DNA of 40,913 nt from Candidatus Sphingobacterium stercoripullorum (lineage in GTDB: Bacteria; Bacteroidota; Bacteroidia; Sphingobacteriales; Sphingobacteriaceae). This document shows positions 20,362 through 37,883 of the stretch, one piece after another (within the stretch, counting starts at the first letter, position 1; each line of letters begins with the position of its first letter). The stretch is from positions 1-40,913 of the forward strand of contig DXEZ01000328.1 of the NCBI GenBank assembly GCA_019114715.1, in the 5' to 3' direction. The notes under the pieces were generated by a model that saw only the letters and a list, made by a program, of their open reading frames with translations, ran no database searches and had not been told where the DNA came from. A program made the position numbers and the translations under genes.

Positions 20362-20435
20362 TACGCCAATCAGGATTCGAACCTGAGACCCTCTGCTTAG
20401 AAGGCAGATGCTCTATCCAGCTGAGCTATTGGCGC
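20362..20435 (-). tRNA. tRNA-Arg (anticodon TCT)
   Basis: GCGCCAA-TAGCTCAGCTGGATAGAGC-A-TCTGC-CTTCTAA-GCAGA-GGGTC-TCAGG-TTCGAAT-CCTGA-TTGGCGT-A forms a full cloverleaf; CCA is not encoded. Confidence 0.97.
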
Positions 20436-22674: not shown

Positions 22675-23322
22675 CTATTTTAAGATCTCTGCGATTTCTT
22701 TAAAACCTTTTTCATAGGCTAGCTCCGATGCTGTCTCTCCAAACTCATTTTTAGCACTTACATCAGCTCCCTTTTCAAGTAGTAGAATCAAAATATCTAT
22801 ATTACCTTGCTGTGCTGCGATATGTATCGGGGCAATACCCTGTGCTTGTAGCACGTTTACCTCCGCACCAGCTTCCAATAGCATTTTTGCGATTTCATTA
22901 TATCCGTTACTTAATGCGGAATGAATGGGGTATACAAAAAAACCATTTTGAGATGGCGCATTTGGGTTAGCATGGGAAGTCAACAATAACCGCACAATAG
23001 TCGATTGACCAAAATGAGAGGCAATTCCTAGTGGTGTAAAACCATCTTTAGATATTTCCTCAATGGCTTGTGGATTGTTAGATAACATCATTTCCACTTC
23101 TTTATAAAGACCTACTGCGCAGGCCTCATGGATATCGATTTTCTTTAAATATTTGAGCAGAATTTTGATGATATCCATCTTATTGAAGTAGCATGCCAGT
23201 AGCAAGGGGGATATCCCGTGACTTGTTAATCGACTTGCCTCTTCGGGTGATTGGCTCAATAGTAAATCTAAATCTTGATAATTACCTGTTTCAATATACT
23301 CTTCTACGGCGGATAAACTCAT
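22675..23322 (-). CDS. Ankyrin-repeat protein
   Basis: Repeats GISPLLLAC, GFTPLGIAS, PIHSA...LLEAGAEVN, GIAPIHIAAQQG...LLEKGADVS. Confidence 0.92.
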   Translation of the reverse strand: MSLSAVEEYIETGNYQDLDLLLSQSPEEASRLTSHGISPLLLACYFNKMDIIKILLKYLKKIDIHEACAVGLYKEVEMMLSNNPQAIEEISKDGFTPLGIASHFGQSTIVRLLLTSHANPNAPSQNGFFVYPIHSALSNGYNEIAKMLLEAGAEVNVLQAQGIAPIHIAAQQGNIDILILLLEKGADVSAKNEFGETASELAYEKGFKEIAEILK

Positions 23323-23546
23323 TACTAATTTTGTAATATTGATTTTTTATTCTAAGGTTGCAAACCAAGATACAATATTGCATTATTTTTTCGAGGTAAT
23401 GAAATTTCACTGGGTAAAAATATATCCACACCCAATTTTGATGGGGTTTTCGTCGAGATCTTAACCTTTCACATCATTCTTGTAGGTATACGGCTACAAT
23501 AGTCCTTAATAAAGGATATATATGTAGTAAAACTTAAAAAGAAAAT

Positions 23547-23554
23547 TACTTTTG
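23547..23554 (+). promoter_or_regulatory. -7 promoter box driving the candidate sRNA / ubiX leader
   Basis: Perfect TAnnTTTG consensus (TACTTTTG). Confidence 0.6.
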
Positions 23555-23556
23555 TA

Positions 23557-23633
23557 ATGCCCTCCCCAAGGGCATGTTTTTCATAGGTAGATGTAGGGTC
23601 GGATATATTTTATATATTCGACCCTTATTGTTT
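23557..23633 (+). ncRNA. Candidate ~75-nt small RNA (5' hairpin, single-stranded seed, terminator)
   Basis: ATGCCCT-CCCCA-AGGGCAT hairpin, linker GTTTTTCATAGGTAGATGT, then AGGGTCGGATATA-TTTTA-TATATTCGACCCT hairpin plus TATTGTTT. Begins right after a -7 box. Confidence 0.6.
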
Positions 23634-23662
23634 AACATCATTTGCAATTTAGCATCCAAATT

Positions 23663-24226
23663 ATGGCAAAAAAGAAATTAATAGTAGCAATTACAGGTGC
23701 AAGTGGATCTATCTATGCCAAATCCTTATTTGACCGTTTAAAAGGATTACAAAATCAGTGGGAAGAAGTAGGGGTCGTCATGTCCGACAATGCCAAGCAG
23801 GTGTGGGAGCTGGAGCTGAATGACGATGATTATAACAAATACCCTTTTAGGTTTTATCAGAAAAATGATTTTATGGCGCCATTTGCGTCTGGGTCGGCGA
23901 AATACGACTCTATGATCATTGCGCCTTGTTCTATGGGGACTTTGGCTCGGATAGCGCAGGGTATCTCTAATGATCTAACCACTCGAGCTGCAGATGTTAT
24001 CCTTAAGGAAAGAAGGAAGCTGATCCTTTTAACTAGAGAAACGCCTCTTAGCAACATTCATTTACAAAACATGTTGACCTTATCTCAAGCCGGAGCCATT
24101 ATATGCCCAGCCTCTCCATCATTTTATAGCGAGCCAAAGAATATTTACGAATTGGCACTAACAGTGGTCGATCGAGCGCTTGACATTGCGGGTTTTGACC
24201 TAGAAAGCTATAGATGGGGAGAATAA
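23663..24226 (+). CDS. ubiX: Flavin prenyltransferase
   Basis: VAITGASGSIY, FASGS, IAPCSMGTLA, RAADVILKERRKL, RETPL, PASPSFY. ATG at 23663. Confidence 0.95.
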   Translation: MAKKKLIVAITGASGSIYAKSLFDRLKGLQNQWEEVGVVMSDNAKQVWELELNDDDYNKYPFRFYQKNDFMAPFASGSAKYDSMIIAPCSMGTLARIAQGISNDLTTRAADVILKERRKLILLTRETPLSNIHLQNMLTLSQAGAIICPASPSFYSEPKNIYELALTVVDRALDIAGFDLESYRWGE

Positions 24227-33563: not shown

Positions 33564-33567
33564 AACT

Positions 33568-34050
33568 ATGAAAAAAAGTAATATATTATTATTGACAATT
33601 TTAGGGATCATGGGGTTTACAGGAGTTTCTTGTTCAGGAAATTCAAGTAATAACCAAGATAGCAATTACGTATCACCTTATGAAGATCCCGAGTATGAAC
33701 CCAATCATTCAGACTCCTTAGTTACACAGACAACTGAAGGCGGTGAGATAGCATTCCAGAAGAAAAGCTTCGACTTTGGAACGATCAAAGAAGGCGAAGA
33801 TATTCTACATAAATATACCTTTACAAATACAGGCAATCAGCCTGTCATCATTGGTAAGGTTGTAACCTCCTGTGGATGTACTAGCTCCAATTTCAGTTCA
33901 AAACCTGTGTTGCCAGGAGAAGAAGGATTCATAGAAGTAGAATTTAAAAGTGATGGACAGGTTGGTAATCAACAAAAAACAATAACTGTTCAAGCAAATA
34001 CCGAAGAAGCCATTTACTTATTGAAATTAAGTGGCAAGGTTGAAAAGTAA
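33568..34050 (+). CDS. DUF1573-domain lipoprotein
   Basis: Lipobox GVSC; FDFGTI, FTNTG, SCGCT, PVLPGEEG. Confidence 0.9.
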   Translation: MKKSNILLLTILGIMGFTGVSCSGNSSNNQDSNYVSPYEDPEYEPNHSDSLVTQTTEGGEIAFQKKSFDFGTIKEGEDILHKYTFTNTGNQPVIIGKVVTSCGCTSSNFSSKPVLPGEEGFIEVEFKSDGQVGNQQKTITVQANTEEAIYLLKLSGKVEK

Positions 34051-37195: not shown

Positions 37196-37313
37196 TGCAA
37201 TAACGACAGTGTGAAAGTAAATGGTGAATTAGAGCTTTTATATTGAGAAATTGCGGTTAATATGCGGGCTTTTTTGTATACTTGTTTGTAGTAAGAGTGA
37301 TATAAAACCGTCT

Positions 37314-37883
37314 ATGAAACTTGATGAATATCTAAAAAAAGAATTCTCATTAGATAAAACAGTTATAAATACAATTGTCAACTCTGGAAAACGTTTGGTT
37401 TTTCAAAAAGGCGACCTGATAATCCCTGCTCATCACTATTCTAGATACGTTTATTTTGTAGAGAAAGGCTTAACGCGCATATTTTACTATAAAGAAGATA
37501 AGCTGGTTACTCATTACTTTTTCCTTGAAGGGGAATTTCTGGGTAATTCGGATAGCTTGCTCTTTAATAAAGAGTCAAACTATGGAATAGAGGCCTTGGA
37601 ACCTGAAACAGTGGTTTTCCGCGTTGCTTATGAAAAGATCATGGAGCTGGCCGAGAATAACTTGGCGGTCAATAAAATTGTCCATCAAATATTATTCAAT
37701 ATGCTAGCTAGTTACTCCAGTAGGTTAAACAGTTTACAGTTTGAAAGCGCTCAAGATCGCTACAAGCAACTACTTGCTAATCGTCCGCAAATAATTCTTC
37801 GAGCTGCTTTAGGAGACATAGCATCTTATTTGGGAATTTCCCAGCAAACACTCAGTGTCATTCGTTCACAAATTAAAGAATAG
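37314..37883 (+). CDS. Crp/Fnr-family transcriptional regulator
   Basis: cNMP-binding fold (YFVEKGLTR, FFLEGEF, IEALE), SAQDRY, HTH IASYLGISQQTLSVIR. ATG at 37314. Confidence 0.92.
   Translation: MKLDEYLKKEFSLDKTVINTIVNSGKRLVFQKGDLIIPAHHYSRYVYFVEKGLTRIFYYKEDKLVTHYFFLEGEFLGNSDSLLFNKESNYGIEALEPETVVFRVAYEKIMELAENNLAVNKIVHQILFNMLASYSSRLNSLQFESAQDRYKQLLANRPQIILRAALGDIASYLGISQQTLSVIRSQIKE

What the first reader, a model, noticed from the sequence alone, without database searches (positions are those of the whole stretch)
23547..23633. Unannotated small RNA with an anti-start-codon seed (UUUUUCAUAG) between the ankyrin gene and ubiX
Seen: a perfect -7 box (TACTTTTG), then within about 77 nt a GC-rich 7-bp hairpin with a CCCCA loop, an unpaired linker GUUUUUCAUAGGUAGAUG, and a 13-bp terminator-like hairpin with a U-rich tail. 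It has no coding potential. This is the typical layout of a trans-acting sRNA. The linker is the reverse complement of CTATGAAAAA, an ATG followed by Lys codons, which is how many Bacteroidota secreted and lipoprotein genes begin. In this window it pairs over 10 nt with the DUF1573 lipoprotein start (CTATGAAAAA, 33566-33575) and over 8 nt with the Crp gene start (CTATGAAA, 37312-37319). Established: Bacteroidota largely do not use Shine-Dalgarno initiation. Inference: an sRNA would then target the AUG/A-rich region directly, so this could be a broad repressor of MKK-starting envelope mRNAs. I recall paralogous sRNA families in Bacteroides (FopS) but cannot verify any relationship. Alternative: a terminated leader controlling ubiX, whose ATG is 30 nt downstream.
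Basis: partly seen in the sequence, partly recalled or inferred. Interest (0 to 1): 0.8.

Follow-up and report, generated by a model that had tools for sequence, protein, structure and literature searches.

The report
Sphingobacteriaceae FopS-like anti-start-codon small RNA
This stretch is a promoter-hairpin-linker-terminator unit found in most Sphingobacteriaceae genomes searched, whose nearly unchanging linker mirrors the AUG-AAA-AA start of many exported-protein genes, so it likely makes a ~72-base RNA that damps their translation as the FopS RNAs of gut Bacteroides do; no transcript or target has been shown.

Summary
The element is real. A covariance model finds it in 129 of 150 Sphingobacteriaceae genomes, with up to 12 copies. 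Both stems covary, while the unpaired linker barely changes. Twelve linker bases equal the FopS/GibS R1 seed of Bacteroides. It fails the Rfam FopS model, which does detect a true FopS elsewhere in this assembly, and it has a 5' hairpin that FopS lacks. It is a FopS-like variant, not a member.

Of 177 copies, 35 lie behind a sigma54-type box instead of the housekeeping box, often in tandem arrays away from ubiX. This argues against a ubiX leader.

AUGAAAAA opens 108 of 1881 genes, against 10 of 1881 internal AUGs, and 66% of those genes look exported. Against this, overall pairing energy is no better at starts than inside genes, the linker's conserved 3' half matches starts no better than shuffles, and no transcript was seen.

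The scan noted FopS-like RNAs before, in phages and Chitinophagaceae, but not this family.

The parts
23547..23554 (+). Bacteroidota housekeeping -7 promoter box (TAnnTTTG)
   Evidence: Sequence. A box of this type, relaxed to allow one change, lies 29-34 nt before the linker core in 125 of 177 copies, 102 of them at exactly 32. Consensus from PMC7366714 passages.
23559..23633 (+). Predicted small RNA, about 72-75 nt, from the inferred start G23559 to the U-tail
   Evidence: Start inferred from the box-to-ATG peak at 4 nt in this genome. Fold z -4.1. CM R1 86 bits. No transcript shown.
23559..23573 (+). 5' hairpin (5 bp, up to 7 bp if 23557-23575 is included), loop variable
   Evidence: All 7 pairs show two-sided changes in the model-fitted alignment A2; 6 of 7 do in the plain MAFFT alignment A1.
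23575..23586 (+). 12 nt identical to the FopS/GibS R1 seed; contains UUUUUCAUA, the complement of U-AUG-AAA-AA
   Evidence: FopS consensus in PMC11697453 methods. Unpaired probability 0.65-0.99. Column identity 0.96-1.00 at 23577-23586 in 46 family rows.
23587..23595 (+). 3' half of the conserved linker; shares UAGAU-UA with FopS; role unexplained
   Evidence: Identity 0.96-1.00. Pairs with bases upstream of AUG no better than shuffles (52% of 300 shuffles reach it).
23595..23633 (+). Intrinsic terminator-like hairpin (14 bp) and an imperfect U-tail
   Evidence: All 9 modelled pairs covary, 98.9% of cells paired. Forcing the 3' arm open costs 17 kcal/mol.
23663..24226 (+). ubiX flavin prenyltransferase, the usual downstream neighbour (context, not part of the RNA)
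   Evidence: TIGR00421. Within 400 nt downstream of 104 of 125 housekeeping-type copies.
22675..23322 (-). Divergent ankyrin-repeat gene (context; neighbour in this genus and near kin only)
   Evidence: Only below-cutoff ankyrin-type NCBIfam hits.
33566..33575 (+). Start of a lipoprotein-like gene, 10-nt complement to the seed (possible, unproven target)
   Evidence: -10.4 kcal/mol, rank 130 of 1881 starts.
37312..37319 (+). Start of a Crp-family gene, 8-nt exact complement (weak candidate)
   Evidence: -8.5 kcal/mol, rank 350 of 1881 starts.

Best explanation
This promoter-to-terminator unit, conserved across Sphingobacteriaceae, likely makes a ~72-nt trans-acting RNA whose unpaired UUUUUCAUA seed is predicted to pair over the AUG and first two codons of mRNAs that begin AUG-AAA-AA, and so would lower their translation, as FopS does in Bacteroides. 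Shown: the layout, the conservation, the covariation, the identity with the FopS seed, the paralogues and their two promoter types, and the excess of AUGAAAAA at starts of exported-protein genes. Inferred: that it is transcribed and ends at the hairpin; that the 5' hairpin protects the 5' end; that pairing blocks 30S loading (these bacteria largely lack Shine-Dalgarno initiation, PMC7366714); and that targets are many and weakly paired, with a bias to signal-peptide genes. The housekeeping copy next to ubiX would give a basal dose. The sigma54-type copies, often in tandem, would add dose under folding or envelope stress, since sigma54 drives chaperone and envelope-stress genes in Flavobacterium (PMC9723704).
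For: Structure: 16 of 16 pairs with two-sided changes and 94.9% paired in A2, against at most 47.8% for slid controls; 13 of 16 in the unfitted A1. The linker is unpaired and more conserved than the stems. Seed: 12 nt identical to the FopS consensus; FopS-10 binds and represses susC at the start codon, with compensatory mutations tested in vitro. Independence from ubiX: 35 of 177 copies have a TGGYA-N6-TTK box 45-49 nt before the core (background 0.2% per window), and 29 of these lack ubiX downstream; four-copy arrays occur. Targets as a class: AUGAAAAA at 108 of 1881 starts against 10 of 1881 for each internal-AUG control; 66% exported against 24%, p 1.6e-18; exported and TonB-receptor starts pair slightly better than the rest (p 4e-9; p 0.0035 for 26 of 45 receptor genes with a usable start). 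With TTTTTCATAG, 2 of 35 sites carry a terminator, against 5 of 1113 for control 10-mers.
Against: No transcript was shown: only assembled contigs were available. One RNA-library contig runs 23575-23987, across the terminator into ubiX, and another covers 23475-23665. Whole-linker duplex energy is not better at starts than at internal AUGs (56 against 80 and 80 of 1881 at <= -12 kcal/mol). Only 19 of the 60 best-ranked starts look exported, close to the 27% background. None of 26 TonB-receptor genes begins AUGAAAAA. The conserved 3' half of the linker pairs with starts no better than shuffles. No clear excess of long complements was seen in 26 genus genomes (875 against 762 reversed-pattern matches, summed by hand, RNA genes included). 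The invariance of the linker is partly built in, because most copies were collected by that word or by a model trained on it. Gene starts and signal peptides came from my own crude caller and heuristic.
Confidence: 0.7

Rival explanations
1. The RNA is real but works mainly by binding a protein: the whole 19-nt unpaired linker is a recognition site, and extra sigma54-type copies titrate that protein, in the manner of multicopy decoy RNAs.
For: The full linker is near-invariant, though its 3' half is not explained by mRNA pairing. No strong individual target was found. FopS RNAs are top ligands of the RRM protein RbpB. Copy number varies from 1 to 12, which suits a dosage role.
Against: RRM_1 proteins were found in only 15 of 40 family genomes and not in this 85%-complete assembly, while the RNA is in 129 of 150. 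The shared core is exactly the seed that pairs with mRNA in FopS and GibS. Another protein is not excluded, and both roles could coexist.
Confidence: 0.16
2. It is a terminated 5' leader (attenuator or riboswitch-like) that controls ubiX.
For: 104 of 125 housekeeping-type copies lie within 400 nt upstream of ubiX. In this window the U-tail is weak, no TAnnTTTG box lies between terminator and ubiX, and one RNA-library contig crosses the terminator, so some read-through here is plausible.
Against: 29 of 35 sigma54-type copies and 16 of 125 housekeeping-type copies have no ubiX within reach, and some are followed by convergent genes. 55 of 93 ubiX-adjacent copies have a separate TAnnTTTG box after the terminator, against 8 expected. 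No competing antiterminator fold was found (17 kcal/mol penalty). Three genomes carry close ubiX orthologues without the RNA upstream. No Rfam cis family hits.
Confidence: 0.07
3. It encodes a small peptide, or is the antitoxin of a type I toxin-antitoxin repeat, being antisense to a short ORF that starts at the complementary ATG.
For: The linker is by construction antisense to an ATG-AAA-AAC ORF (12 aa here), a + strand ATG just before the U-run exists in 147 of 176 copies, and tandem arrays recall type I repeats (recalled, not tested).
Against: The antisense ORF varies from 5 to 108 aa over 175 copies (median 12). The + strand ORF varies from 6 to 66 aa, and the linker varies no more at third codon positions than elsewhere (165 of 176 are identical over 20 nt). 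The ATG of the 9-aa ORF is in 41 of 176. Promoter and U-tail polarity point to the + strand.
Confidence: 0.03
4. It is a REP-like or otherwise mobile palindromic repeat (GTAG plus hairpin) with no regulatory RNA function.
For: The terminator begins with GTAG followed by a palindrome, like GTAG-type REPs (recalled). Some genomes hold arrays.
Against: One copy in this genome and no GTAG-hairpin family among the sites listed. Fixed position next to ubiX across genera and fixed spacing to two promoter types. The unpaired part, not the palindrome, is the most conserved.
Confidence: 0.02

Closest known systems
FopS (Rfam RF04319 BTncRNA_FopS), 14 paralogous sRNAs of Bacteroides thetaiotaomicron; PMC11697453
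   Same: About 70 nt; housekeeping TAnnTTTG promoter; single-stranded R1 seed followed by an intrinsic terminator; 12 nt identical; a further shared UAGAU-UA; multicopy.
   Different: No hit to RF04319. It has a covarying 5' hairpin where FopS is single-stranded from its 5' end. The linker is shorter (about 20 against 40 nt) and has GG where FopS has UAUU just 3' of CAUAG. It usually has one syntenic copy rather than 12-15. A second class of copies lies behind sigma54-type boxes, whereas FopS genes have the canonical promoter. RRM partner proteins are patchy. The paper reports FopS only within Bacteroidaceae and one phage (BLAST, word size 28).
GibS (Rfam RF04182) of B. thetaiotaomicron; PMC7366714
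   Same: Shares the R1 seed according to PMC11697453; pairs across start codons; alternative (non-housekeeping) promoter.
   Different: 145 nt with a second seed R2 and a PM2 (-10/-30) promoter, not a -24/-12 box. The GibS model did not list this locus among 10 matches at E<=10 in the own genome.
Sigma54-dependent sibling sRNAs (Qrr1-5 of Vibrio) and sigmaE-dependent MicA/RybB/MicL of enterobacteria (all recalled, not from a call)
   Same: Multicopy sRNAs behind sigma54 promoters (Qrr); a non-coding arm that cuts envelope-protein synthesis under stress (MicA, RybB, MicL).
   Different: No sequence relation was tested or is expected; those depend on Hfq, which Bacteroidota lack (PMC7366714, PMC13750123 passages).
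Rfp36, a sigma54-promoter sRNA of Flavobacterium psychrophilum; PMC9723704
   Same: Shows that a TGGCA-N6-TTGC box can drive an sRNA in this phylum.
   Different: Its 202-nt sequence lacks the seed (supplement rows); unrelated.

Membership tests
FopS (RF04319) | Scores above the Rfam gathering threshold (56 bits) | tested here: not met
   No FopS match for the element at gathering or at E<=10. Positive control: contig C267 of the same assembly scores 81.8 bits.
FopS (RF04319) | R1 seed in a single-stranded region | tested here: met
   12 nt identical to the published consensus; unpaired probability 0.65-0.99.
FopS (RF04319) | 3'-extended seed R1' | tested here: not met
   Sequences diverge after CAUAG, apart from UAGAU-UA.
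FopS (RF04319) | Unstructured 5' end followed by a single terminator hairpin | tested here: not met
   A covarying 5' hairpin precedes the seed.
FopS (RF04319) | Canonical sigma-ABfr promoter | tested here: met
   TACTTTTG at 23547 in this copy; 125 of 177 copies, but 35 have a sigma54-type box and 17 neither.
FopS (RF04319) | Multiple paralogues per genome | tested here: inconclusive
   One copy here; 1 to 12 across the family, most genomes one.
FopS (RF04319) | Represses SusC-like mRNAs at the start codon | tested here: inconclusive
   26 TonB-receptor starts pair slightly better than others (-7.5 against -6.5 kcal/mol, p 0.0035), but 0 of 26 begin AUGAAAAA. Repression itself cannot be tested here.
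FopS (RF04319) | Bound by the RRM protein RbpB | not testable with these tools
   RRM_1 not found in this 85%-complete assembly; found in 15 of 40 family genomes.
GibS (RF04182) | Model score of 115 bits; second seed R2; about 145 nt | tested here: not met
   Locus absent from the 10 matches at E<=10; unit is about 72 nt.
Trans-acting base-pairing sRNA (general class) | Discrete transcript with own start and end | tested here: inconclusive
   Promoter and terminator are conserved, but only contigs of RNA runs were available; one crosses the terminator.
Known cis-regulatory RNA families in Rfam 15 | Hit to a riboswitch, leader or attenuator model | tested here: not met
   Only a tRNA in the whole window at gathering; four unrelated chance hits at E 1.9-8.5.

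The most novel reading that the evidence does not exclude
The FopS/GibS anti-AUG seed is not a gut-Bacteroides speciality but a phylum-level way to regulate mRNAs that lack a Shine-Dalgarno site. In Sphingobacteriaceae it is a near-core gene that reads the lysine codons opening signal peptides, and so throttles exported-protein synthesis as a class. Sigma54-driven tandem arrays of up to four copies would make it the non-coding arm of the sigma54 protein-quality and envelope stress response.
Probability: 0.25. Interest if true: 0.78.

Novelty: new variant of a known kind. Interest (0 to 1): 0.55.

Why it matters
How trans sRNAs act in a phylum without Shine-Dalgarno initiation and without Hfq was posed as an open question (PMC7366714) and answered so far by GibS and FopS in gut Bacteroides, with FopS reported only from Bacteroidaceae. 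This family carries the same seed in soil and compost Sphingobacteriaceae, in 129 of 150 genomes and mostly as a single copy. That makes a clean knockout possible, which 14 FopS paralogues hinder. It occurs in many genomes with no RRM chaperone detected. The sigma54-type arrays give a direct prediction: induction under heat or envelope stress, loss in an rpoN mutant, and lower output of MKK/MKN-starting exported proteins. The mechanism is of a known kind, so the gain is breadth and a new regulatory wiring rather than a new principle.

Tried and rejected
Rfam scans found no family for the element.

RNA evidence: 22 runs were listed, all kept as contigs, and eight were laid. None can show ends, strand or level. 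In run X1 a contig begins at 23575 with an adapter and continues to 23987. The four runs hold relatives and may be DNA. No conclusion on expression.

Target search: energy ranking gave no standout target and no enrichment at starts. Several top hits owe their score to a promoter box that would not be in a leaderless mRNA. A wobble-complement pattern showed no clear excess in 26 genomes.

Breadth outside the family: R1 and RF04319 over 150 class genomes and a sigma54-plus-seed pattern over 400 (4 hits, one in this family) gave seed-plus-terminator look-alikes in about ten other families. Motif plus terminator arises by chance about 0.1 times per genome, so singletons are not evidence. Only those with extra features stand above chance: L156 (52 bits, 5' hairpin, sigma54-type box), L157 (E 5e-4), L244 and L245 (sigma54-type box, but found by that pattern) and the four-copy array L208. 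Two candidates (L212, L220) were ordinary gene starts on the other strand and were dropped. A broader model, R2, mostly recovered its own training set (16 of 151). Alignments A3, A4 and A5 were not used for a model.

Viral contigs: 9 matches of a 17-mer, one with a terminator (L296), none with the full layout.

Rfp36 of F. psychrophilum lacks the seed.

A strand-swap switch between the two hairpins was rejected: the 5' stem changes in some copies (for example L031, L092) while the terminator arm does not.

Literature searches found no description of this family. The library lacks most subscription papers; a 2022 comparative-genomics paper on Bacteroides RNAs (recalled) was not seen, nor were the FopS paper's figures and supplements.

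Full report
Observation. The 94-nt stretch folds at z -6.2. Rfam 15 has no family for it. In this genome TAnnTTTG boxes peak 4 nt before ATG (38 genes), which I read as leaderless starts. That places the RNA's start at G23559, the first base of the conserved GCCC stem, and gives about 72-75 nt (inference). The window belongs to Sphingobacteriaceae, most likely Sphingobacterium, because same-genus loci match named Sphingobacterium records (inference).

Conservation. The 181-nt query hits 34 of 36 same-genus genomes at E<1e-14, and the matches cover essentially the element. A covariance model built from 108 copies finds the RNA in 129 of 150 family genomes at E<=0.01, with 1 to 12 copies. Two genera have none (0 of 9 and 0 of 6). 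In the unfitted alignment, 13 of 16 pairs show two-sided changes. In the model-fitted alignment of 55 distinct rows, which includes a few rows from other families, 16 of 16 do and 94.9% of cells pair, against at most 47.8% when partners are slid. In 46 family rows the linker columns 23577-23595 are 96-100% identical while most stem columns are 50-90%. Caveat: most copies were collected with the linker word or a model trained on it, so its invariance is partly built in.

Two promoter classes and independence from ubiX. Among 177 distinct copies, 125 have a housekeeping-type box (relaxed pattern) 29-34 nt before the core. Another 35 have instead TGGYA-N6-TTK 45-49 nt before it (background 0.2% per window), and 17 have neither. 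The second motif has the -24/-12 geometry of sigma54 promoters described for Flavobacterium (example); this assembly has a sigma54 gene. Both spacings point to about the same 5' end. Of the housekeeping copies, 104 lie within 400 nt of ubiX, 16 do not and 5 are too short to tell. Of the sigma54-type copies, 3 do, 29 do not and 3 are too short. Sigma54-type copies form tandem arrays, for example four in Mucilaginibacter rubeus, each with its own box and terminator, and three followed by a housekeeping copy in L223. In 55 of 93 ubiX-adjacent copies a second TAnnTTTG lies between terminator and ubiX (8 expected), and opening the terminator costs 17 kcal/mol. Three genomes have close ubiX orthologues with no such RNA upstream. 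So ubiX is the usual address, not the regulated gene. This window's copy has a weaker tail and no second box, and one RNA-library contig crosses the terminator, so read-through may feed ubiX here.

Relation to FopS. The methods of PMC11697453 give the FopS R1' consensus; its positions 2-13 equal 23575-23586, and both carry UAGAU-UA a little further on. That paper reports that FopS pairs over start codons of susC mRNAs and blocks translation in vitro, with compensatory mutations. It also reports that FopS binds RbpB, uses canonical promoters and was found by BLAST within Bacteroidaceae and one phage. Rfam holds the family as RF04319. A sequence on contig C267 of this assembly scores 81.8 bits, while our element does not hit. 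FopS passes its cut-off in 5 of 151 class genomes and in 0 of 4 other family genomes. The element therefore likely works like FopS but is not a member: it adds a covarying 5' hairpin, has a shorter and different 3' linker, and has sigma54-type paralogues. Whether the shared seed is inherited or convergent I cannot tell; any anti-AUG-AAA seed must look alike over about 9 nt.

Targets. With my own gene caller (1881 ATG genes used), AUGAAAAA opens 108 genes, against 10 in each of two equal samples of internal AUGs. By a simple signal-peptide heuristic, 71 of those 108 are exported, against 429 of 1773 others (p 1.6e-18). Exported genes, and 26 of 45 TonB-receptor genes with a usable start, pair slightly better than the rest in a narrow window. 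Against this: over a wider window, duplex energy is no better at starts than at internal AUGs (56 against 80 and 80 at <= -12 kcal/mol). The top 60 candidates are 19 of 60 exported. No TonB-receptor gene begins AUGAAAAA, and the 3' half of the linker pairs upstream of AUG no better than shuffles. Long complements are not clearly in excess across 26 genomes. The picture is a short, broad seed with weak individual pairings, and a conserved 3' half without an explanation.

Mechanism. Most likely (0.7) it is a trans-acting RNA that pairs over AUG-AAA-AA starts and lowers initiation, with a basal copy and, in some genera, sigma54-type extra copies. Sigma54 controls chaperones, proteases and envelope-stress genes in F. 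psychrophilum and chaperone genes are enriched in predicted Bacteroidota regulons, so a stress role is a reasonable inference, not a result. Protein titration (0.16) would explain the invariant 3' half, but RRM proteins occur in only 15 of 40 family genomes. A ubiX leader (0.07), a peptide or type I antitoxin (0.03; ORFs vary 5-108 and 6-66 aa) and a REP-like repeat (0.02) fit worse.

Beyond the family. One genome of another family has a clear homologue with hairpin, linker, terminator and sigma54-type box (L156, 52 bits). Seed-plus-terminator units occur in about ten other families, including a four-copy array (L208). Singletons are at chance level (about 0.1 per genome), so class-wide spread is suggested, not shown.

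Novelty. Seven literature searches found no account of this family. What I saw of each paper: PMC11697453, passages and sections 7, 9 and 12, no figures or supplements; PMC7366714, PMC13750123, PMC2864571 and PMC12316311, passages; PMC9723704, passages and supplement rows. Unseen supplements of the FopS paper could bear on its range. Earlier notes of this scan describe FopS-like RNAs in phages and Chitinophagaceae but none on this sequence or family; I had reached the FopS link before reading them. Verdict: real, a new variant of a known kind, interest 0.55.

Noticed in passing
G000:C267:6813-6883 (-) (L181, L202, L301), outside the window: A true FopS (81.8 bits) at the end of a 6.9-kb contig with arsA, acr3, arsD, an ArsC-like and an ArsR-like gene. 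The contig is the second most atypical of 166 by tetranucleotides, and part of it is 91.5% identical to a Prevotella plasmid record. It is probably a mis-binned or transferred Bacteroidales element; FopS also matches several Bacteroides plasmid records, so it may travel on mobile DNA.
   Followed up: partly
L139, L235, L240, L237, L224, L189-L192, L092, L232, L233: 17 of 177 copies have neither promoter box. Several share CGTATA or GTAT(T/A)A about 10 nt before the 5' end, possibly a third (ECF-type) promoter class.
   Followed up: no
window 23582-23595: Allowing two G-U pairs, the 3' half of the linker is complementary to TACATTTG followed by three bases and ATG, i.e. a -7 box in front of a leaderless start; FopS's UAGAUUUA is likewise complementary to TAAATTTG. 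It may be chance (my rough estimate is about 1 in 7) and has no tested meaning.
   Followed up: no
L051, L054, L061, L079, L124, L141, L246: Mucilaginibacter-type sigma54 copies carry a conserved CUGCGAGAG in the terminator loop, a GNRA-like capped extension absent from housekeeping copies.
   Followed up: no
G122:C3:299151-299354 and 297539-297610: In one genome an RRM_1 gene lies about 1.5 kb from the RNA gene; not seen as a general neighbour.
   Followed up: partly
L208 (G185:C1:2781331-2782064): Four tandem units of seed plus terminator without a 5' hairpin in another Bacteroidia family, two with a TATATTTG box upstream.
   Followed up: partly
L278 (G189:C1:1438644-1438719, -), L186, L290: Further seed-plus-terminator units with a different linker in family genomes, one only 4 kb from the main copy; one lies in a genus that lacks the main RNA. 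They could be 3'-UTR-type relatives or chance.
   Followed up: partly
window 20362-20435 (-): A tRNA gene, the only Rfam hit in the window.
   Followed up: no
L296 (IMG/VR contig): One viral contig has the full linker word followed by a terminator but no 5' hairpin.
   Followed up: no
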